Sequence record: ON711395.1
Reading direction: 5' to 3' (one strand)
Source: Escherichia phage brachmannus
Length of the DNA stretch: 51,540 nt
Positions 16,908-43,577 of the stretch are shown here, in pieces. A program made the translations under genes and the position numbers. The number at the start of each line of letters is the position of its first letter. The stretch's first letter is position 1. The notes beneath the pieces were generated by a model, which ran no database searches, had not been told where the DNA came from, and saw only the letters and a list, made by a program, of their open reading frames with translations.

Positions 16908-16933
16908 TAACCAGCATTGCGCTGGTTTTTTTG
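16908..16933 (+). terminator. intrinsic terminator after HNH gene
   Basis: AACCAGC-ATTGC-GCTGGTT then T7. Confidence 0.65.
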
Positions 16934-16981
16934 TGCATTTATAATGAGCAAACCAATAAACAGCACAAAAGGTTAAAAGTC

Positions 16982-19900
16982 ATGGATAAATGTATGATAA
17001 GTGGCAGTAAGGGCGGAAGCAAAAAGCCATACGTGCCAAAAGAGATGGAAGATAACCTGATCTCGATAAACAAGATTAAAGTTTTGCTGGCTGTATCTGA
17101 TGGCGAGTGCGATCCAGACTTCACGTTGCGTGATCTTTATCTTGATGATGTTCCGGTTATTGCCAGCGATGGCACTGTTAACTATGAGGGGGTAACGGCT
17201 GAATATAGACCAGGTACACAGACGCAAGATTACATCCAGGGGTTTACTGACACATCAAGCGAGGTGACAGTTTCGCGAGATATTACAGCAGACAATCCCT
17301 ATATTATCTCTGTAACAAATAAAAATCTTTCTGCAATCAGAATCAAGATTCTGATGCCAGTTGGCATAAAACAGGAGGATAACGGCGATCTTGTTGGTGT
17401 AAGGGTTCAATATGCCGTAGATATGGCTGTTGATGGCGGTTCTTATAGCGAGGTTATGAGAGATGTAATTGACGGCAAGACAAGATCAGGATATGACCGC
17501 AGCAGAAGGATTGATCTTCCTAAGTTTGATGAGCGCGTTTTAATCAGGGTCAAGCGGCTGACTCCAGACAGCACATCTTCAAAGGTGACTGATAAAATCA
17601 AACTGCAAAGTTACGCTGAGGTTGTGGATGCAAAATTCCGTTATCCTCTGACTGGCCTTGTATTCGTAGAGTTTGACAGCGAATTGTTTCCTACGCAAAT
17701 CCCTAACATTTCTATAAAAAAGAAATGGAAGATTATTAATGTGCCAAGCAACTATGATCCAATATCTAGAGAATATCACGGGTCATGGGATGGGACTTTT
17801 AAAAAAGCGTGGTCAAATAATCCTGCTTGGGTTCTTTATGATCTGGTAACGAATCAGCGTTATGGACTTGACCAGCGAGAGTTAGGAATACAGATCGACA
17901 AGTGGAGCTTATACGAGGCTGGTGTTTACTGTGATCAGAAAGTTCCAGACGGTAAGGGCGGTACAGAGCCTCGCTACCTATGCGATGTGGTGATCCAGAA
18001 TCAGGTTGAGGCTTATCAGCTAATCCGTGACATTTGCTCAATCTTTCGCGGAATGAGCTTTTGGAATGGAGAGAGCTTATCAATCGTAATTGATAAACCG
18101 CGCGATCCATCATACGTGTTTACTAATGAAAACGTCATCAACGGTGATTTTCAGTACACAGCAGCAAGCGAAAAAAGCATGTACACGCAATGTAATGTGA
18201 CGTTTGACGACGAACAAAACATGTATCAGCAGGACGTAGAGGGGGTTTTTGATACTGAGGCGGCATTACGATTTGGATACAATCCAACAAGCATTACAGC
18301 GATCGGGTGTACACGCAGGAGCGAAGCGAATCGTCGCGGTCGGTGGGTTTTGAAAACAAACCTTAGAAGCACTACTGTAAACTTTGCTACCGGACTAGAG
18401 GGGATGATTCCATCCATAGGTGATGTGATTGCTATCGCTGATAATTTTCAGAGCAGCAATCTAACGTTAAATCTTTCGGGCCGAGTAATGGAAGTTTCAG
18501 GCTTGCAAGTTTTCGTTCCGTTTAAGGTTGATGCGCGTCCTGGTGATTTTATTATCATCAACAAGCCGGACGGAAAGCCAGTTAAGCGAACGATCTCAAA
18601 GGTGAGCGCAGACGGAAAAACCATTGAGTTAAATATTGGCTTTGGTTTTGATGTTAAGCCTGATACTGTTTTTGCGATTGACCGTACTGACCTTGCGTTG
18701 CAGCAATACGTTGTGACAACTATCAGCAAGGGTGATGACGAAAACGAGTTTACCTATTCAATCACGGCTGTGGAGTACGATCCGAACAAATACGACGAGA
18801 TTGATTATGGAGTAAACATTGATGACAGACCGACTTCAATTGTTCAGCCTGACGTGATGGCAGCGCCTGAGAACGTTAAGATCTCATCTTATTCTCGCGT
18901 CGTGCAGGGTGTTAGCGTTGAGACTATGGTTGTTTCATGGGATAAGGTTCCTTACGCATCGCTTTATGAAATGCAGTGGCGAAAAGGTGATGGTAACTGG
19001 CTGAATACGCCGCAGACAGCTAACAAAGAGATAGAGGTAGAAGGGATTTACTCTGGCAACTACCAAGTAAGGGTGAGATCCGTTTCTGCAAGCGGTAACG
19101 CTTCCCCGTGGTCAAAGATTGCAACCGCCACTCTGACAGGTAAAGTTGGCGAGCCAGGAGCGCCGATTAATCTTACGGCTTCTGATAATGAAGTTTTTGG
19201 CATTCGTGTCAAATGGGGTATGCCGGAAGGATCGGGCGATACGGCTTACATTGAGCTTCACCAATCGCCAGATGGGACGGTGGAAAACTCAAGTTTGCTT
19301 ACGCTGATCCCGTATCCTCAATATGAGTATTGGCATAGCACGTTACCAGCGGGTCAAGTTGTATGGTATAGAATCCGTAGCGTTGACAGGATCGGCAACG
19401 TTTCCGGCTGGACTGACTTTGTTCGCGGCATGGCGTCAGATGATGTTGAATCTGTTTTAGGCGACATTCTGGACAAGATTTTTGATACCGAAGCGGGTCA
19501 AGAAATCAAAGAGAACGCCATAGACAGTGCAAACAAAATCAAAGACCAGGCGCAATCAATCATCCAGAACGCATTGGCAAACGATGCCGATGTGAAGTGG
19601 ACGCGAGTACAAAACGGAAAGCGTAAGGCTGAATATGGTCATGCACTGGAGCTTATTGCTACCGAAACGGAGGCGCGAGTAACTCAAATCGAAGAGTTAA
19701 AGGCGTCAATTGATGAAGATATAGTTTCAAGTATCAAAACCGTTCAGGAAGCGATTGCCAATGAATCAGAGACGCGAGCTACTCAAGTGCAGCAGCTTGA
19801 TTCTAAATTTACGAAGGAAATAGACGGCGTAAAACGAGATACGGCTGCAAGCATTGGCGAGGTAAGGCAAACCATTACCAATGAATCAGAAGCGCGTGCG

Positions 19901-20560
19901 CAAGCCGTTCAGCAGCTTGACGCTAAGTTTTCGAAAGAGATTAATGACCTTAACGATGCAATCAAGGTTGATGTTGAGGCGAACATATCAGAAGTAAGAC
20001 AGGCTATCGCTAATGAGACAGAGGCAAGGGTTCAGGCTGACCAGGCTTTAACAGCCAAATTCGGAGACGTTGAATCAGCACTAGCCGAAAAACTTGATTC
20101 GTGGGCTAACGTTGATTCTGTTGGCGCTAAGTACGCTATGAAATTGGGCCTTACTTACAAGGGGCAGAAGTACAGCGCAGGAATGATCATGCAGTTGTCG
20201 CAATCTTCTCAAGGCCTGATCTCGCAAATCTTGTTCGATGCTAACAGGTTCGCGATCATGACTAGCTCTACTGGCGGTACGTTTACATTGCCGTTTGTAG
20301 TAGAAAATAACCAGGTGTTTATCAACAGTTTGTTGGTGAAAAACGGGTCCATTACTAACGCAATGATTGGTAACGTGATTCAGTCAAATAACTTTGTTCA
20401 GAATCAGCAAGGATGGAGGCTTGATAAAAATGGTAACTTTGAGAACTACGGAACGAGAGCGGGGGAAGGAGCTACAAAATTCACTAACGAAGGCTTAAAG
20501 GTGAAAGATGCAAATGGACGATTGAGGGTTGAGATAGGGAGAATAACCGGAAGTTGGTAA
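16982..20560 (+). CDS. central tail fibre / host specificity protein (lambda J-like)
   Basis: about 1190 aa; N-terminus GSKGGSKKPYVPKEMEDNL resembles lambda J N-terminus; alternative start ATG 16994; C-terminal coiled-coil repeats. Confidence 0.85.
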   Translation: MDKCMISGSKGGSKKPYVPKEMEDNLISINKIKVLLAVSDGECDPDFTLRDLYLDDVPVIASDGTVNYEGVTAEYRPGTQTQDYIQGFTDTSSEVTVSRDITADNPYIISVTNKNLSAIRIKILMPVGIKQEDNGDLVGVRVQYAVDMAVDGGSYSEVMRDVIDGKTRSGYDRSRRIDLPKFDERVLIRVKRLTPDSTSSKVTDKIKLQSYAEVVDAKFRYPLTGLVFVEFDSELFPTQIPNISIKKKWKIINVPSNYDPISREYHGSWDGTFKKAWSNNPAWVLYDLVTNQRYGLDQRELGIQIDKWSLYEAGVYCDQKVPDGKGGTEPRYLCDVVIQNQVEAYQLIRDICSIFRGMSFWNGESLSIVIDKPRDPSYVFTNENVINGDFQYTAASEKSMYTQCNVTFDDEQNMYQQDVEGVFDTEAALRFGYNPTSITAIGCTRRSEANRRGRWVLKTNLRSTTVNFATGLEGMIPSIGDVIAIADNFQSSNLTLNLSGRVMEVSGLQVFVPFKVDARPGDFIIINKPDGKPVKRTISKVSADGKTIELNIGFGFDVKPDTVFAIDRTDLALQQYVVTTISKGDDENEFTYSITAVEYDPNKYDEIDYGVNIDDRPTSIVQPDVMAAPENVKISSYSRVVQGVSVETMVVSWDKVPYASLYEMQWRKGDGNWLNTPQTANKEIEVEGIYSGNYQVRVRSVSASGNASPWSKIATATLTGKVGEPGAPINLTASDNEVFGIRVKWGMPEGSGDTAYIELHQSPDGTVENSSLLTLIPYPQYEYWHSTLPAGQVVWYRIRSVDRIGNVSGWTDFVRGMASDDVESVLGDILDKIFDTEAGQEIKENAIDSANKIKDQAQSIIQNALANDADVKWTRVQNGKRKAEYGHALELIATETEARVTQIEELKASIDEDIVSSIKTVQEAIANESETRATQVQQLDSKFTKEIDGVKRDTAASIGEVRQTITNESEARAQAVQQLDAKFSKEINDLNDAIKVDVEANISEVRQAIANETEARVQADQALTAKFGDVESALAEKLDSWANVDSVGAKYAMKLGLTYKGQKYSAGMIMQLSQSSQGLISQILFDANRFAIMTSSTGGTFTLPFVVENNQVFINSLLVKNGSITNAMIGNVIQSNNFVQNQQGWRLDKNGNFENYGTRAGEGATKFTNEGLKVKDANGRLRVEIGRITGSW
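19640..20060 (+). repeat. intragenic tandem repeats (three units of about 35 codons) in J-like gene
   Basis: protein repeats I(A/T)NE(S/T)E(A/T)R...VQQLD(S/A)KF(T/S)KEI. Confidence 0.6.
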
Positions 20561-20586: not shown

Positions 20587-21201
20587 TTAATCATAGTGCG
20601 ATGAATTTATAACCAAAACAGATGATGCCGTGTAAATACCAACAGGACCAGGAGTTTGCGCAACCTGCCTAGATAAAGAATATACCCCGTTGCCATACGC
20701 GGCAGCTTGAGACTCAAATATCATGAATCCACCTAAAGACGGATTGGGCACAGAGTTTAAAGCTGTTAGTGATGGCATGATGGCGCAAGGGTATCCCAAG
20801 TTAACGTCAAAAGCGATCCCGCTTACAGATACAAGTTTTGCATCCAAAGGCTTCATCTTTCCATGATAAACCATCTCACCATTAGCATTATAAAAAGCTA
20901 TTCCGTGACTACCAGGAGGAGTAACCATGTTGCTAAAAGCATAAACAAATACCTCGCCTTGATTGTCGGACTTTTCTATCTTTATTGCGTGCTTCCCACC
21001 ATTATTAAACTGAGTAAATGCTATGTATGATTTTGATGTTAACCTTACAAAAAAGAAGCACGGTCTATTTATTGGTATAGAAGTATTAAAAACGGTTCCT
21101 GTTCTTGCTGATATTTTCCCTTTATCTATAAGGTTAACAGGAGTGAAATCTGGACTTAACCACAATGAACCGTCCGGTTTTTTTATGCTCATCCCGTACA
21201 T
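20587..21201 (-). CDS. hypothetical protein (possible tail fibre-associated)
   Basis: ORF on minus strand; ATG at 21199-21201 with GGGGG RBS-like run (track start 21213 is TTG). Confidence 0.4.
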   Translation of the reverse strand: MYGMSIKKPDGSLWLSPDFTPVNLIDKGKISARTGTVFNTSIPINRPCFFFVRLTSKSYIAFTQFNNGGKHAIKIEKSDNQGEVFVYAFSNMVTPPGSHGIAFYNANGEMVYHGKMKPLDAKLVSVSGIAFDVNLGYPCAIMPSLTALNSVPNPSLGGFMIFESQAAAYGNGVYSLSRQVAQTPGPVGIYTASSVLVINSSHYD

Positions 21202-21203
21202 TA

Positions 21204-21482
21204 TTACCCCCAAAAAGTATATATATATCTTGAGTCAGATCCAGAAAGGCCACTCCATGTAACGGTATCACCACTTACACCCAACTTTGGAGCGCCTGGA
21301 TCGCCTCCTCGCCACGAATTAATTCCAACATATATTGCTTTCAAAGACTTACCTGGCGGCCTGTTTGAGTAGGTCTTACTGCCGGATGATTGGGTAAATT
21401 TATCCAAGAAAAAAACTGGAGTTAAAAGACCAGTAACATTTCTACCTTGCTCATCATATATTGCATACCCATATTCAGCCAT
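21204..21482 (-). CDS. hypothetical protein
   Basis: 92-aa ORF with GAGGTG RBS; ends in T5G5 homopolymer region abutting downstream ORF. Confidence 0.4.
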   Translation of the reverse strand: MAEYGYAIYDEQGRNVTGLLTPVFFLDKFTQSSGSKTYSNRPPGKSLKAIYVGINSWRGGDPGAPKLGVSGDTVTWSGLSGSDSRYIYTFWG

Positions 21483-21750
21483 TTTTGCACCTCAAATCAA
21501 TGAATTTTCTTTCATCTTGCCAACGGTTGATAAATTTAACTTCTTTATTGTCAACGCTCAACCTGTATTGCTTTTGGCTGAATCTGTTTTCGCGGACAGC
21601 ATTAATTTTAACTTCATGGAATCCGTTAACAGGGAATGTTTTAACGTTAAATTTTGCCGTGCAATCGATCTCCTTGAAGTTGCCAGTAGGCGAAGAAGAA
21701 CATCCGGTCAGAGCGGCTACGGTGGCGATAACTGCGATTAATTTTTTCAT
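21475..21750 (-). CDS. lipoprotein, candidate Cor/Llp-like superinfection exclusion protein
   Basis: signal peptide with lipobox LTGC; AAGGAG RBS; small size; located next to tail fibre genes with own promoter region. Confidence 0.45.
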   Translation of the reverse strand: MKKLIAVIATVAALTGCSSSPTGNFKEIDCTAKFNVKTFPVNGFHEVKINAVRENRFSQKQYRLSVDNKEVKFINRWQDERKFIDLRCKNG

Positions 21751-21806
21751 CTTCAATACTCCTTAGTTGTTGTTGGCTGTAACTATACACGATCCGACAA
21801 GCTGAG

Positions 21807-27526: not shown

Positions 27527-27546
27527 TAGCACTTTTTGCTAATGAC
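27527..27546 (+). promoter_or_regulatory. conserved motif copy TAGCACTTTTTGCTAATGAC (antisense to adjacent tail fibre gene start)
   Basis: abuts RBS of tail fibre gene on opposite strand. Confidence 0.5.
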
Positions 27547-27614: not shown

Positions 27615-28544
27615 TTATAGCAGTGATTCGGGCTTGTAGAGTTTTCTTTCTACTCCCTGTTTAAAATTATCGTTAACAGGCATCATTATGTCAAGCCCTC
27701 TTTCCTCTGCCGCGATTATCACATCACGATCATCTTTCCGGCAGACTACGCGCATTCTTCTTTCTCCTTTATATCTATGCGCAACCATTTCAAGATTTGA
27801 AGGAGTAAAACAGGCCCACACCTCTTGACCAGTTGATAAATGAACATGCTGAGAATCAACCCAATCAAGGCACAAATAGATCGTCTTATCTGTACTACCT
27901 GTTTTAACAACAGATCCTCGCGTGTAGTCGCGAGCTAAAAACCAATCCTTTCCATCCTCATCAATGAAAAGCACGTTACACATTTCATCATCCAGCCCGT
28001 CATCATGCACCAGGTGACAAGGTAGCGCGTGAATGTATCGACCATCCTTGACGCCGCAATCATAATGACAATCTTCCGGCGGATATATCCCCTCATAAAC
28101 GCTTAAAGGTGTGCGATCGAATTTTAATGTTTTTGCCATCACTTTTTCGCAACATTCATGACTTGCCTGTTTCCCGAACGAGTAACCAGAAGAACGCGAA
28201 GCGCATTTGTTTGCTCTGATCCTGTAATCTTGTGGCACTTTTCCGAGGAAGCGGCCCAAAATGTTGATGGCCTCGCTGTAAGGTTCGCCAGTTAATTTCA
28301 TTAACCAACCGATCCCCGTGTCGTTGCCGCACACGTTGCAGATCGCGCCGCCGTCGCCCTCTTCATTTAGCTTATCAGTCCATCTAAAACGATCCTTACC
28401 GCCGCAGTGTGGGCAAGGTTGATGCTTTTTGTTGAAAACATCGCTATGCAGTCCGCAAATGCTTTGTAGTGCTTCACGCCATAACCCCTTCATATATGGC
28501 AAAACATCTTCTTTCTGATAGGTCATAAAGTTTTCAGTATTCAT
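27615..28544 (-). CDS. DNA primase (zinc-binding)
   Basis: CPHCGG...CNVCG zinc ribbon; acidic toprim-like region; ATG at 28542-28544 with GAGGT RBS. Confidence 0.6.
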   Translation of the reverse strand: MNTENFMTYQKEDVLPYMKGLWREALQSICGLHSDVFNKKHQPCPHCGGKDRFRWTDKLNEEGDGGAICNVCGNDTGIGWLMKLTGEPYSEAINILGRFLGKVPQDYRIRANKCASRSSGYSFGKQASHECCEKVMAKTLKFDRTPLSVYEGIYPPEDCHYDCGVKDGRYIHALPCHLVHDDGLDDEMCNVLFIDEDGKDWFLARDYTRGSVVKTGSTDKTIYLCLDWVDSQHVHLSTGQEVWACFTPSNLEMVAHRYKGERRMRVVCRKDDRDVIIAAEERGLDIMMPVNDNFKQGVERKLYKPESLL

Positions 28545-34706: not shown

Positions 34707-35197
34707 TGAGCATAAAGAACAGGGTAGCGGCTGCGGCCTTTGGCGTTGCGGTTGCCTTGACTTCTCCACTTCTTGAAGAGATCGAAGGTGTAAGATACAA
34801 GCCATACAAAGATATTGCTGGAGTATGGACGGTTTGCGCAGGAATCACCGGACCAGATGTTATCCTGGGGAAAACGTACACTAAAAAAGAGTGTGATGCT
34901 TTGTTGGCTAAGCATATCCAGGTTGCTAAAAAGGAAGTTGATAAGCAAGTTAAGGTTGACATTCCTGATAGTATGCGTGCAGCAATGTACTCATTCACCT
35001 ACAATGCAGGTGTGGGAGCTTTCAGAAATTCAACAATGCTGAAACTCATCAACCAGGGGAAATTAAGCGAGGCTTGCGATCAGCTTTATCGTTGGACGTA
35101 TTACCATAACCCAAAAACAGGAAAGCGCGAGAAGTCTAAAGGCTTACTTAACAGGCGCAAGGTCGAATACAAATATTGCACAATGGATCTGAAATGA
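34706..35197 (+). CDS. SAR endolysin (GH24 lysozyme)
   Basis: N-terminal signal-anchor-release-like hydrophobic segment; catalytic E-x8-D-x5-T motif ([16 protein letters not shown]). Confidence 0.8.
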
Positions 35198-35589
35198 TGA
35201 AGAAATTTTTAATCGCACCAATCGCAATGGCGGTGATCTTGTCTGGATGTTCAAGCGTTACGCCACTGACCGGATTAATCGGCAGTAAGCCGGAAATCAC
35301 AGCACAGGCTGGCGCGGAGAACGTGAAGCAGACAGTCGGCATTACAGCAAAGCAGGACACTAGCACAAAACAGGAAACCACAATAAAGGAATCTGCGGTT
35401 GATAAGGTGGACACGTCCAGCAAGAAGGATTTCACAACATCAACCATTCAGGCCAATACCATCAAGGCAGACAAAATTCAGGTCGTGCAGGGTAATAACG
35501 GCAGATGGTACGATCCAATAATCATATGCGTGGTTGTGTTCATTGTGCTGATTTGTCTTTACTGGAGGGAAAAGAAAAAGGAGGCTTAA
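35194..35589 (+). CDS. unimolecular spanin (u-spanin, T1 gp11-like)
   Basis: N-terminal lipoprotein signal with lipobox LSGC plus C-terminal transmembrane helix; start overlaps endolysin stop. Confidence 0.7.
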
Positions 35590-42095: not shown

Positions 42096-42154
42096 TTACT
42101 ATCTCCTGAGCGGTTCGTTTCGATGTGTGTAATGTACCCGATCAGGCGGCCTGA

Positions 42155-42173
42155 TTTTTAACAAAAAGTGCTA
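42155..42173 (-). promoter_or_regulatory. conserved motif + hairpin, minus strand, upstream of first minus-strand early gene
   Basis: minus strand TAGCACTTTTTGTTAAAAATCAGGCCGCCTGAT. Confidence 0.55.
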
Positions 42174-42713
42174 TTTGACGGTTAGCACCAGGATTGTGAT
42201 CGAAATAATCAAAAGTAATCATTCGTAATCAAATCACGTCAAAATGATGATTGCCTTTGCAAATTTGATGAGAAAAGTAATCACGTTTAATCATTGGTTG
42301 CAGGGGAGATAGTGAAACCTTCCCCTCTTGCCTCACTTTTCCGCCCGGCTGTCAGTGGTTGTTATGTTCCGTTCCCGCCTGTTCTTTTGTTGACCTTCCG
42401 CAAAATACGATAACAAAAAATAACAAACAGTACCTATATAATACATTGAAAAATAAGTATTATTTATTTATATGTATCTATATATTCTCTTTTGTTATCT
42501 TGGTTATTGTGGTATTTGGTGGGGTATATAGTTTTTGTGTATCTGTATGTGTGTATGGGTATGTAGGGGGCATATATATCTATATGGCACTTTCCGCGAG
42601 AAAACTTCGATAACAGGCAATGATAACATTGATTTATAAGGAAAAATAACGCCCATATTGTTATTGTGCCACCATATAAAATTGATAAAACACGCGGGAA
42701 CAAGAAAAAACAG

Positions 42714-42742
42714 TTGACACATTAAATAGCATTATTGATAAT
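42714..42742 (+). promoter_or_regulatory. sigma70-like promoter TTGACA-17-GATAAT upstream of plus-strand early array
   Basis: consensus -35 and good -10 about 30 nt upstream of AGGAGG RBS of 42772 gene. Confidence 0.6.
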
Positions 42743-42771
42743 GCCGACACCTAACAACCAGGAGGTAGAAA

Positions 42772-43236
42772 ATGAGCGAGCAATCATTCACTGACACGCT
42801 GCGCCGTGCAGCTATTATGCTGGCTAATGGCGAGGAAGAGACGATCAAGATTCCTGACGCGTATTTGCAGGTCCACATGTTCGGTAAGAAGTCGGCAAGC
42901 AATCCGGCGGCCTACATTCGCCAGATCATGAGTCGAGTGCCAGAAGTCGCCGAGCGGGGGCGCGTATCCGTTACCCGTGGCGTTTACGGGCCGGAAGATG
43001 AAAACTTCGGTAGCACTTTCTACGAGGTGCGGATTGTTGAAGGCCGTCGCAAGGTTTACAACAAAGAGGCACTGGAAAAGGCAGTGCGCCAGGCTAAGCG
43101 CAAGGTTGCAGAGGCGATCATTGATATGTCACCAAACCTGGCAAACTATGCGCCGGAAGAGTACGAAACATTATCAAAGGCCGTCGCTGACTTTCACGCG
43201 ATGATCAAAAAAACTTTCCTGGAGGATGAGCAATGA
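42772..43236 (+). CDS. hypothetical protein (first plus-strand early gene)
   Basis: 154 aa, AGGAGG RBS, downstream of TTGACA-17-GATAAT promoter. Confidence 0.55.
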   Translation: MSEQSFTDTLRRAAIMLANGEEETIKIPDAYLQVHMFGKKSASNPAAYIRQIMSRVPEVAERGRVSVTRGVYGPEDENFGSTFYEVRIVEGRRKVYNKEALEKAVRQAKRKVAEAIIDMSPNLANYAPEEYETLSKAVADFHAMIKKTFLEDEQ

Positions 43237-43505
43237 AAAAGGCATTAATCAGCGTTTTGGCGGCAATGGCATTCCTGACCGGATGCAAAGAAGATGGCGC
43301 GCATGTTGGCAATGTGCAGATGGCTAACCCTGGCGATGACTACAGCGTAAGGGAGCTATTCACCGCTGACGGTTGCACCGTTTACCGATTCTATGACGAT
43401 CGCACTGTTTACTTCACCAACTGTAAGGGCACGACTATCTGGGAAGTGTCGAAAAGCAATGGCAAAGGCACGAAGACAGAACATATGACCGTCGAGACAA
43501 AATAG
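43233..43505 (+). CDS. small lipoprotein
   Basis: signal peptide with lipobox LTGC. Confidence 0.5.
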   Translation: MKKALISVLAAMAFLTGCKEDGAHVGNVQMANPGDDYSVRELFTADGCTVYRFYDDRTVYFTNCKGTTIWEVSKSNGKGTKTEHMTVETK

Positions 43506-43521
43506 CACTTTTTGTTAAAAC
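43503..43521 (+). promoter_or_regulatory. conserved motif + hairpin GCCAGGC-GCAAA-GCCTGGC + ATAAT
   Basis: overlaps stop TAG of lipoprotein gene. Confidence 0.6.
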
Positions 43522-43577
43522 GCCAGGCGCAAAGCCTGGCATAATAGCCTCATCGAAACGAGATTGAGGAAACAAAA

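What the first reader, a model, noticed from the sequence alone, without database searches (positions are those of the whole stretch)
43233..43505. Second small lipoprotein among early genes
A second lipoprotein (lipobox LTGC, Cys-containing mature part) is encoded as the second gene after the strong early promoter. It is an alternative superinfection-exclusion or envelope-modifying candidate.
Basis: partly seen in the sequence, partly recalled or inferred. Interest (0 to 1): 0.4.

Follow-up and report, generated by a model that had tools for sequence, protein, structure and literature searches.

The report
Orphan phage outer-membrane lipoprotein (DUF4884)
This is a real gene of a T1-like coliphage for a small lipid-anchored periplasmic protein from a large, almost entirely phage-borne family that nobody has characterised; it is not a relative of the known receptor-blocking lipoproteins, and its role in excluding other phages is plausible but unproven.

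Summary
ORF 43233-43505 (+) encodes a 90-aa protein with a textbook lipoprotein signal peptide (MKK..., lipobox L-T-G-C18) and two further cysteines. It is the second gene behind the best intergenic sigma-70 consensus site in the window and overlaps the first gene by 4 bp.

The window is a T1-like coliphage (Drexlerviridae). The protein belongs to Pfam DUF4884, about 1,900 clusters of 80-90-aa lipoproteins found almost only on phage or prophage DNA. All are annotated "hypothetical". A confident AlphaFold model shows a tethered five-stranded beta-sheet with no informative structural match.

It is not related to Cor or Llp. Its alleles assort independently of the Cor-like lipoprotein next to the tail-tip gene, and it also occurs in LptD-targeting phages. 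A narrow "second receptor blocker" reading is therefore disfavoured.

Between near-identical phages only the mature domain is swapped, as a discrete cassette. That pattern fits a gene caught in a conflict.

The best guess, at low confidence, is an early, outer-membrane-anchored periplasmic factor that acts at envelope level without depending on the receptor. This would be exclusion of incoming phages or control of a host envelope protein. Function remains untested. The finding is ordinary in kind but moderately interesting as a target.

The parts
42714..42742 (+). Sigma-70-type promoter-like site TTGACA-17 nt-GATAAT, upstream of the two-gene unit
   Evidence: The consensus scan scores it 11/12. 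Only three sites in the window reach 11/12. The region is 97-100% identical in phage tiwna. Activity and timing were not tested.
42772..43236 (+). First gene of the unit: a 154-aa DUF7174 protein with no signal peptide
   Evidence: Pfam PF23796 matches at 2e-28 and phrog_4841 at 3.5e-24, both of unknown function. The same family precedes the lipoprotein gene in phage Rtp as rtp1. It does not precede it in Serratia phage MTx.
43221..43226 (+). Shine-Dalgarno GGAGGA, 6 nt before the ATG of the lipoprotein gene
   Evidence: Read directly from the sequence.
43233..43505 (+). DUF4884 lipoprotein gene, 90 aa plus the TAG stop; its ATG overlaps the upstream TGA as ATGA
   Evidence: The ORF is in the list. 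Pfam DUF4884 scores 31.8 bits against a cut-off of 30. phrog_6360 matches at 2e-8. All 135 aligned relatives hit DUF4884.
43233..43286 (+). Signal peptide and lipobox: residues 1-17 plus the lipid-acceptor Cys18, L15-T16-G17-C18
   Evidence: The PROSITE-type rule is met. The lipobox is present in 161 of 169 relatives. This stretch stays 93-100% identical to tiwna while the mature part diverges.
43287..43346 (+). Tether, residues 19-38, with almost no regular secondary structure in the model
   Evidence: The AF2 model places a single two-residue strand fragment (23-24) here and no strand of 3 or more residues or helix of 4 or more. The distance from the lipid Cys to the DGC motif is tightly kept in the family: median 24 residues, 10th-90th percentile 22-26, and 28 in this protein.
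43347..43502 (+). Folded domain, residues 39-90: five antiparallel strands carrying the invariant LF..DGCTVYRF.D....YFTNC and GK motifs
   Evidence: The AF2 model from 135 sequences has pLDDT 89.7, with strands at 40-45, 48-55, 57-62, 66-75 and 80-89. Invariant columns come from the alignments.
43270..43504 (+). Swapped allele cassette, covering the mature protein only
   Evidence: Window and phage tiwna are 93-100% identical at nucleotide level on both sides and 30-73% identical inside. Identity returns to 100% at 43505. Identity bands among phage records are >=90% (43 records) or <60% (75 records), with none between.
43505..43545 (+). Copy of the repeated 17-mer GCACTTTTTGTTAAAAC, a hairpin CCAGGC-GCAAA-GCCTGG, and a CATAAT -10-like hexamer; downstream border of the cassette
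   Evidence: There are 14 copies in the window against 0.28 expected. They share the architecture ATAGCACTTTTTGTTAAAAC-N18-(C/T)ATAAT. Function was not tested.

Best explanation
Shown or strongly supported: this is a genuine accessory gene of a T1-like (Drexlerviridae) coliphage. It is co-transcribed and probably translationally coupled with the DUF7174 gene from a near-consensus host-RNA-polymerase promoter.

Inferred from established lipoprotein biogenesis rules: the 90-aa precursor is exported by Sec, diacylglycerol-modified at Cys18, cleaved by signal peptidase II and N-acylated. Because residue +2 is Lys rather than Asp, it is carried by Lol to the inner leaflet of the outer membrane. A tether of about 20 residues then holds a 52-residue five-stranded beta-sheet domain in the periplasm, probably stabilised by a C48-C64 disulfide.

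Inferred, low confidence: the domain uses its invariant face (LF..DGCTVYRF.D / YFTNC / GK loop) to bind something conserved at the inner face of the outer membrane. Its variable edge (the tether and strands 4-5, which are what is swapped between phages) tunes specificity. The most likely outcome is an envelope-level block that does not depend on the receptor: exclusion of incoming phages or of their periplasmic tail-tip or DNA-transit machinery. It would act in parallel to, and independently of, the Cor-like receptor blocker encoded next to the tail-tip gene.
For: Gene reality and selection: 118 phage records, 1,871 family clusters and pN/pS of 0.17-0.28.

Lipoprotein and periplasmic location: the lipobox rule is met and the lipobox is conserved in 161 of 169 relatives. 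The +2 residue is Asp in only 12 of 208. Mature proteins have 3 or 5 cysteines in 197 of 208 cases, meaning the lipid Cys plus one or two pairs. Tether length is conserved (all).

Fold: AF2 pLDDT 89.7.

Phage-borne, stand-alone, early-region gene: the contexts are metagenomic phage contigs, the early region of a Pseudomonas prophage near an AlpA-like excisionase, and 80 viral contigs with no neighbour family shared by more than 5 of 56 groups. There are no plasmid or E. coli genome copies.

Conflict-type evolution: cassette replacement is confined to the mature domain inside flanks that are 97-100% identical, and allele classes are discrete.

Independence from the receptor module: the same Cor-like allele occurs with three lipoprotein alleles.

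Prior, from my own knowledge and PMC13164509: characterised non-lysis lipoproteins of Gram-negative phages, such as Cor, Llp and Rtp45, are exclusion factors.
Against: There is no experimental datum for any family member. The literature holds only annotation-level mentions, and 855 homologues are named only 'hypothetical' or 'DUF4884'. No structural or sequence analogue of known function was found. The invariant core is shared by phages of Escherichia, Serratia, Erwinia, Pantoea, Pseudomonas and Xanthomonas. That fits a conserved host target as well as it fits a phage target. T1 itself lacks the gene, and phage aalborv carries a frameshifted copy, so it is dispensable for plaque formation. Early timing is inferred from the promoter and position only. 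I could not inspect model coordinates, so the C48-C64 disulfide and the exposed face are not verified.
Confidence: 0.3

Rival explanations
1. Host-envelope takeover factor. The lipoprotein binds and inhibits or redirects a conserved host periplasmic or outer-membrane protein, for example a peptidoglycan hydrolase or its lipoprotein activator, a periplasmic protease, or the Lpt, Bam or Lol machinery. The effect would be to stabilise or condition the envelope during the short latent period, with no direct effect on other phages.
For: An 8-residue block, DGCTVYRF, is invariant among the 19 closest homologues, which are only 40-50% identical overall, and it is kept in relatives from phages of several host genera. 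An invariant Gly-Lys lies in the turn between strands 4 and 5, and in most members it is framed by a Cys-x-x-x-Cys pair. Tether length is constant, as expected for reaching a fixed partner. The gene sits among early or accessory genes in unrelated phages.
Against: A conserved host target does not obviously explain why near-identical phages infecting the same K-12 host carry mature domains only 46-56% identical. No similarity to any known inhibitor fold or family was found. The gene is dispensable.
Confidence: 0.25
2. Receptor-specific exclusion lipoprotein of the Cor/Llp type, which is the first reader's idea in its narrow sense. It would bind the periplasmic side of one particular outer-membrane receptor and make it unusable for phage adsorption.
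For: It is a small outer-membrane lipoprotein with a disulfide-capable mature part, like Cor and Llp. Discrete allele classes could correspond to different receptors.
Against: Alleles do not follow the receptor module. Phages with a >=92% identical Cor-like protein carry the 98%, 56% or 46% allele. The gene lies about 22 kb from the tail-tip and receptor-binding locus where cognate exclusion genes sit (PMC8594841). There is no homology to Cor-like proteins or to Llp. The conserved core is shared across host genera that do not share such receptors.
Confidence: 0.1
3. Counter-defence protein. It would neutralise an envelope-located host immunity or abortive-infection sensor, or a surface-exclusion protein, with allele diversity reflecting diversity of host defences.
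For: Cassette-like allele replacement in otherwise identical genomes and a promoter-proximal position are typical of anti-defence genes. The gene is accessory and patchily distributed.
Against: There is no match in PADLOC or to any named family. Most known defence sensors are cytoplasmic or in the inner membrane, whereas the +2 residue predicts outer-membrane sorting. No evidence links presence of the gene to resistance patterns.
Confidence: 0.1
4. Lysis accessory (an o-spanin-like outer-membrane lipoprotein), or a non-functional or mis-called ORF.
For: It is a small outer-membrane lipoprotein, and phages need one for the last lysis step.
Against: The lysis region lies about 8 kb away. It already contains a complete unimolecular spanin at 35197-35589, with a lipobox and a C-terminal transmembrane segment like T1 gp11. 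The gene is under purifying selection and belongs to a family of about 1,900 clusters. It has its own Shine-Dalgarno sequence.
Confidence: 0.03

Closest known systems
Pfam DUF4884 (PF16225), uncharacterised small lipoproteins
   Same: The protein scores above the curated cut-off (31.8 against 30 bits). All 135 aligned relatives hit the model, with a best E-value of 2.6e-13. GenBank already labels several phage orthologues 'DUF4884 domain-containing protein'.
   Different: The Pfam model covers only the 49-residue core. The phage proteins form a large set of their own, with 1,871 clusters, and some relatives (Rtp, MTx, Jeremy) fall below the cut-off. No function is attached to the family.
Cor (T1, phi80, N15, HK022) and the Cor-like lipoprotein of this window (21475-21750, minus strand)
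   Same: Both are small phage-encoded lipoproteins with predicted outer-membrane sorting and extra cysteines. Both are plausible envelope-level exclusion factors.
   Different: No homology is detectable once signal peptides are removed (hhalign probability 0.13%). The genomic place differs: Cor sits next to the tail-tip gene with two membrane-protein genes, while this gene is in the promoter-proximal small-gene region. The alleles assort independently.
Llp of phage T5 (FhuA-binding exclusion lipoprotein, PDB 8A60)
   Same: Both are early-expressed small lipoproteins of a virulent siphovirus with a disulfide-containing beta-rich mature domain. This rests on my own knowledge and PMC13164509.
Pfam Lipoprotein_15 (PF03640), secreted repeat with a Tyr-x-aromatic...Asp motif
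   Same: There are weak recurrent hits over the YRF.D / C.G stretch: E 0.016 for this protein and 11 of 135 relatives.
   Different: The hits are far below the cut-off (15.1 against 24.4 bits). The domain is single here rather than in tandem repeats, and that family also has no known function.
T1 gp11-type unimolecular spanin, the window's third lipoprotein (35197-35589)
   Same: Both have an N-terminal lipobox and predicted outer-membrane anchoring.
   Different: The spanin has a C-terminal transmembrane segment and sits in the lysis region. The DUF4884 protein has neither.

Membership tests
Bacterial lipoprotein (signal peptidase II substrate) | N-terminal positive residue(s), an uncharged hydrophobic stretch, and a lipobox [LVI][ASTVI][GAS]C with the Cys at position 15-35 | tested here: met
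   MKKALISVLAAMAFLTGC passes the PROSITE-type rule in a scan of all window ORFs. The lipobox is conserved in 161 of 169 relatives.
Bacterial lipoprotein (signal peptidase II substrate) | Actual acylation and globomycin-sensitive processing | not testable with these tools
   This needs labelling or processing experiments.
Outer-membrane (Lol-sorted) lipoprotein | No Lol-avoidance residue (Asp) at position +2 | tested here: met
   The +2 residue is Lys here and Asp in only 12 of 208 distinct mature family members. The rule itself is established for Enterobacteria (own knowledge), and localisation has not been shown.
Pfam DUF4884 (PF16225) | Score at or above the curated gathering threshold of 30 bits | tested here: met
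   31.8 bits, E 1.2e-7. All 135 of 135 relatives match.
Cor superinfection-exclusion lipoprotein (phrog_1119 / NCBIfam NF047972) | Sequence or profile similarity of the mature protein to Cor family members | tested here: not met
   There is no Cor hit in PHROGs or NCBIfam for this protein. The hhalign comparison of mature-domain alignments gives probability 0.13%. The window's other lipoprotein does hit phrog_1119 at 6.4e-8.
Cor superinfection-exclusion lipoprotein (phrog_1119 / NCBIfam NF047972) | Location beside the tail-tip or receptor-binding genes, and co-variation with receptor specificity | tested here: not met
   The gene is about 22 kb from the J-like gene 16931-20560. Its alleles are uncoupled from the Cor-like allele. 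It is present in LptD-targeting phages (PMC8594841).
Llp (T5) exclusion lipoprotein | Sequence or fold similarity to Llp (PDB 8A60) | tested here: not met
o-spanin (Rz1-like) | Encoded in, or embedded in, the lysis cassette next to an i-spanin gene | tested here: not met
   The lysis region lies near 34.7-35.6 kb and contains a unimolecular spanin. This gene is at 43.2 kb.
Pfam Lipoprotein_15 (PF03640) | Score at or above the gathering threshold of 24.4 bits | tested here: not met
   15.1 bits, E 0.016.
Known anti-phage defence proteins (PADLOC) | Match to any PADLOC model | tested here: not met
   0 families at E<=1.

The most novel reading that the evidence does not exclude
DUF4884 lipoproteins are a previously unrecognised, very widespread class of phage envelope effectors. 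They would be outer-membrane-tethered periplasmic binders with a conserved scaffold and an exchangeable specificity edge. They would give receptor-independent protection of the infected cell, for instance by intercepting the tail-tip or tape-measure machinery of competing phages in the periplasm. The discrete alleles seen among near-identical T1-like phages would then be exclusion specificities in a phage-against-phage arms race.
Probability: 0.2. Interest if true: 0.65.

Novelty: new member of a known kind. Interest (0 to 1): 0.35.

Why it matters
T1-like phages are model and nuisance phages, yet most of their promoter-proximal small genes have no known role. This gene belongs to one of the larger phage-restricted lipoprotein families, about 1,900 clusters at 50% identity, found in siphoviruses, myoviruses, jumbo phages and prophages of several Gram-negative genera. 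Not a single member has been characterised. If it blocks incoming phages or controls a conserved envelope protein, it would add a second, receptor-independent layer to phage-encoded envelope protection. It would also supply a small, naturally diversified binding scaffold. The clean three-allele natural experiment in otherwise identical phages makes the question directly testable with a plasmid-expression panel. If no phenotype is found, it remains an ordinary orphan accessory gene.

Tried and rejected
- **Named families.** Pfam, PHROGs, NCBIfam and PADLOC gave only DUF4884, unknown-function PHROGs and signal-peptide-only hits.
- **First AlphaFold run.** A 19-sequence alignment gave pLDDT 58.7 and was discarded. 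The 135-sequence run was used instead.
- **Suspected Cor homology.** Both window lipoproteins hit phrog_902 and phrog_6360. I rejected this after removing signal peptides.
- **Guilt by association.** DUF7174 linkage holds only within Drexlerviridae. All-against-all clustering of neighbours in 80 viral loci found no partner shared by more than 5 of 56 groups.
- **T1 as a reference.** T1 lacks the gene, and its first gene ST77 is not detectably similar to the DUF7174 protein.
- **Other replicons.** Searches of plasmids and of E. coli genomes gave no match.
- **Species-genome scan.** The scan of 185,579 species genomes gave only 10 loci, nine in Pseudomonas and one in a deltaproteobacterial MAG. 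The one inspected is a prophage early region.
- **Literature.** Searches for DUF4884, T1-like early transcription and new exclusion lipoproteins gave no functional data.
- **Second homologue search.** The search with the Cor-like protein gave only four close relatives, so the Cor alignment had to be built from phage records.

Full report
**What the window is**

The 1.6 kb around the finding is 97% identical to T1-like coliphages of the family Drexlerviridae, such as NorthRox, MikeNSara, tiwna and tonn. NorthRox and tiwna are classified as Tempevirinae, genus Warwickvirus. The gene order matches a T1-type genome, running terminase, head, tail, a J-like tail-tip gene, replication, lysis and small genes.

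**Check of the observation**

- ORF 43233-43505 (+) exists and encodes 90 aa: MKKALISVLAAMAFLTGC-KEDGAHVGNVQMANPGDDYSVRELFTADGCTVYRFYDDRTVYFTNCKGTTIWEVSKSNGKGTKTEHMTVETK.
- A rule-based scan of every ORF in the window with the PROSITE lipobox pattern finds three credible lipoproteins. They are the Cor-like gene 21475-21750 (-), a unimolecular spanin 35197-35589 (+) with a C-terminal transmembrane segment, and this gene. It is therefore one of three, not two.
- A GGAGGA Shine-Dalgarno lies 6 nt before the ATG, and the ATG overlaps the stop of the upstream ORF as ATGA.
- The upstream ORF 42772-43236 is a DUF7174 protein of unknown function.
- It is preceded by TTGACA-17-GATAAT at 42714-42742, which scores 11/12. 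Only three sites in the window reach 11/12.
- "Second gene behind a strong promoter" is correct. "Early" is an inference from promoter quality and position.
- In the T1 and Rtp records the equivalent region is the first coding stretch at the left genome end, and in T1 it lies inside the 2.8-kb terminal repeat.

**Family**

- The protein passes the Pfam DUF4884 threshold, 31.8 bits against 30. It also hits two PHROGs of unknown function.
- tblastn finds it in 118 phage records. Most are Drexlerviridae of several genera. Others are Serratia myoviruses, an Erwinia phage, a Pantoea phage, Pseudomonas phage Jeremy and Xanthomonas jumbo phage X1.
- An exhaustive profile search of 1.84 billion representative proteins finds 1,871 clusters at E<=1e-3 and 839 at E<=1e-10.
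- Of 169 sequences retrieved, 161 have a recognisable lipobox.
- Among 208 distinct mature sequences, the +2 residue is Asp in only 12.
- The distance from the lipid Cys to the DGC motif is 22-26 residues (10th-90th percentile).
- The mature protein has 3 cysteines in 64 cases and 5 in 133, which means the lipid Cys plus one or two pairs. This is the pattern expected of an oxidised periplasmic protein (all).
- Invariant or near-invariant positions are L42, F43, D46, G47, C48, Y51, R52, F53, D55, Y60, F61, C64, G77 and K78.
- Within the close allele class, pN/pS is 0.17-0.28.
- Every source name among 855 homologues is "hypothetical protein" or "DUF4884 domain-containing protein".
- The searchable literature holds only table entries.

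**Structure**

With 19 sequences AlphaFold gave a poor model. With 135 sequences it gave mean pLDDT 89.7. The model has the signal-peptide helix, a segment of about 20 residues with almost no regular secondary structure, and five antiparallel strands at 40-45, 48-55, 57-62, 66-75 and 80-89.

**Relation to the receptor-blocking lipoprotein**

The window's other small lipoprotein hits the Cor PHROG at 6.4e-8. It sits with the two membrane-protein genes typical of Cor cassettes, just after the J-like gene.

Both lipoproteins hit the same two unknown-function PHROGs, which suggested distant homology. After removing signal peptides, a profile-profile comparison gives probability 0.13%. I therefore reject that idea.

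| Phages sharing a >=92% identical Cor-like protein | Identity of their DUF4884 allele to the window |
|---|---|
| tonn, tinuso, tunus | about 98% |
| MatMar, BEBK14 | about 56% |
| tiwna, atuna, mar001J1, vB_EcoS-95 | about 46% |

The gene is also present in Rtp and JeanPiccard, which target LptD according to PMC8594841. It is absent from T1. The gene is therefore uncoupled from the receptor module.

**Evolutionary pattern**

Window and tiwna are 93-100% identical at nucleotide level from 42610 to about 43270. That stretch includes the whole DUF7174 gene and the signal-peptide codons. Identity falls to 30-73% only across 43270-43504, the mature protein, and returns to 100% at 43505.

Identity bands over all phage records are >=90% or <60%, with nothing between. 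This is cassette exchange rather than gradual drift.

The downstream border coincides with a 17-mer, GCACTTTTTGTTAAAAC, that occurs 14 times in the window against 0.28 expected. Each copy follows the strand of the genes I compared it with and is followed 18 nt later by a -10-like hexamer.

Phage aalborv has a frameshifted, unannotated copy. The gene is therefore dispensable for plaque formation, unless that is a homopolymer sequencing error.

**Context elsewhere**

- Two metagenomic relatives lie among small genes of large phage contigs, near T4-type RNA ligase, Lar and NAMPT genes, or near queuosine-pathway genes.
- A scan of 185,579 species genomes for the core motif gave only 10 loci, nine of them in Pseudomonas. 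The one I inspected is a prophage early region with a methylase and an AlpA-like excisionase.
- In 80 viral contigs falling into 56 allele groups, no neighbouring protein family is shared by more than 5 groups.
- DUF7174 linkage is confined to Drexlerviridae.
- There are no copies on 72,556 plasmids or, at DNA level, in 5,426 complete E. coli genomes.

The gene therefore travels alone, on phages.

**Interpretation**

I hold with high confidence that this is a real, selected phage accessory gene for a lipoprotein exported to the periplasm and most likely anchored in the outer membrane.

What it does is not known. The discrete swapping of the mature domain in otherwise identical phages, the promoter-proximal position and the precedent of Cor, Llp and Rtp45 favour an envelope-level conflict function. 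Independence from the receptor module and the cross-genus conserved core argue against a simple second receptor blocker.

| Reading | My probability |
|---|---|
| Receptor-independent exclusion or protection | about 0.3 |
| Control of a conserved host envelope protein | about 0.25 |
| Cor/Llp-type receptor blocker | about 0.1 |
| Anti-defence | about 0.1 |
| Lysis accessory or non-functional | about 0.03 |

The remainder, about 0.2, is unassigned to any named reading.

In kind this is an ordinary orphan member of a known DUF family, already present in GenBank as a hypothetical protein. Its interest lies in the size of the uncharacterised family and in how easily the natural three-allele series could be tested.

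Noticed in passing
window 6741, 10492, 21805, 29091, 31580, 32651, 38258, 38932, 40850, 42155, 43505, 43968, 45185, 49443: A 17-mer, GCACTTTTTGTTAAAAC, occurs 14 times (up to 3 mismatches) against 0.28 expected. The copies I compared with the ORF lists follow the strand of the adjacent genes. The shared architecture is ATAGCACTTTTTGTTAAAAC-N18-(C/T)ATAAT, and several copies have a G+C hairpin inside the spacer. It looks like a phage-specific promoter or regulatory unit, possibly also a recombination linker, since one copy forms the exact downstream border of the swapped lipoprotein cassette. The 42714 promoter lacks this motif.
   Followed up: partly
window 20587-21756, minus strand: A three-gene cassette lies just after the J-like tail-tip gene: a membrane-associated protein (phrog_425), an outer-membrane protein (phrog_557) and a Cor-like lipoprotein (phrog_1119, 6.4e-8). 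The lipoprotein is only distantly like T1 Cor and falls below the NCBIfam Cor cut-off (18.5 against 31 bits). The gene orientation differs from T1, so the terminal receptor of this phage should not be assumed to be FhuA.
   Followed up: partly
window 35197-35589, plus strand: This is a third lipoprotein, of 130 aa, with lipobox LSGC and a C-terminal hydrophobic segment. It corresponds to the unimolecular spanin (gp11) annotated in T1, directly after the endolysin-sized ORF.
   Followed up: partly
L104 (phage aalborv, MN850591.1) about 701-960: The DUF4884 gene is frameshifted right after the lipobox cysteine, apparently by one A missing from a run of A's, and is not annotated in the record. 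It is either a natural pseudogene or a homopolymer sequencing error.
   Followed up: partly
window about 42100-42770: This is an AT-rich stretch of about 600 bp with no convincing ORF, lying between divergently oriented gene blocks. In the T1 and Rtp GenBank records the corresponding place is the start of the linear record, and in T1 it lies inside the 2.8-kb terminal repeat. It may therefore hold the packaging start or genome end.
   Followed up: no
L036, L037, L041, L043, L045, L047, L051, L055, L061, L077, L094 and L008 (Pseudomonas prophage-like loci): A subgroup of DUF4884 lipoproteins carries a conserved C-terminal extension of about 35 residues (...ERQLSPHE...PALAPGRWIDERYQL) that the coliphage proteins lack. 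In some loci the gene sits near a DNA cytosine methylase and integrase or excisionase genes.
   Followed up: no
window 27666-27694, minus strand: This is a second promoter-like site with exactly the same hexamers and spacing (TTGACA-17-GATAAT) as the one driving the lipoprotein unit. It lies upstream of the large minus-strand ORF that starts at 27532.
   Followed up: no
phage records MG0656xx named 'Campylobacter phage': About 18 records labelled as Campylobacter jejuni phages match this T1-like coliphage region at high identity. The labels are likely wrong, or the phages are contaminants.
   Followed up: no
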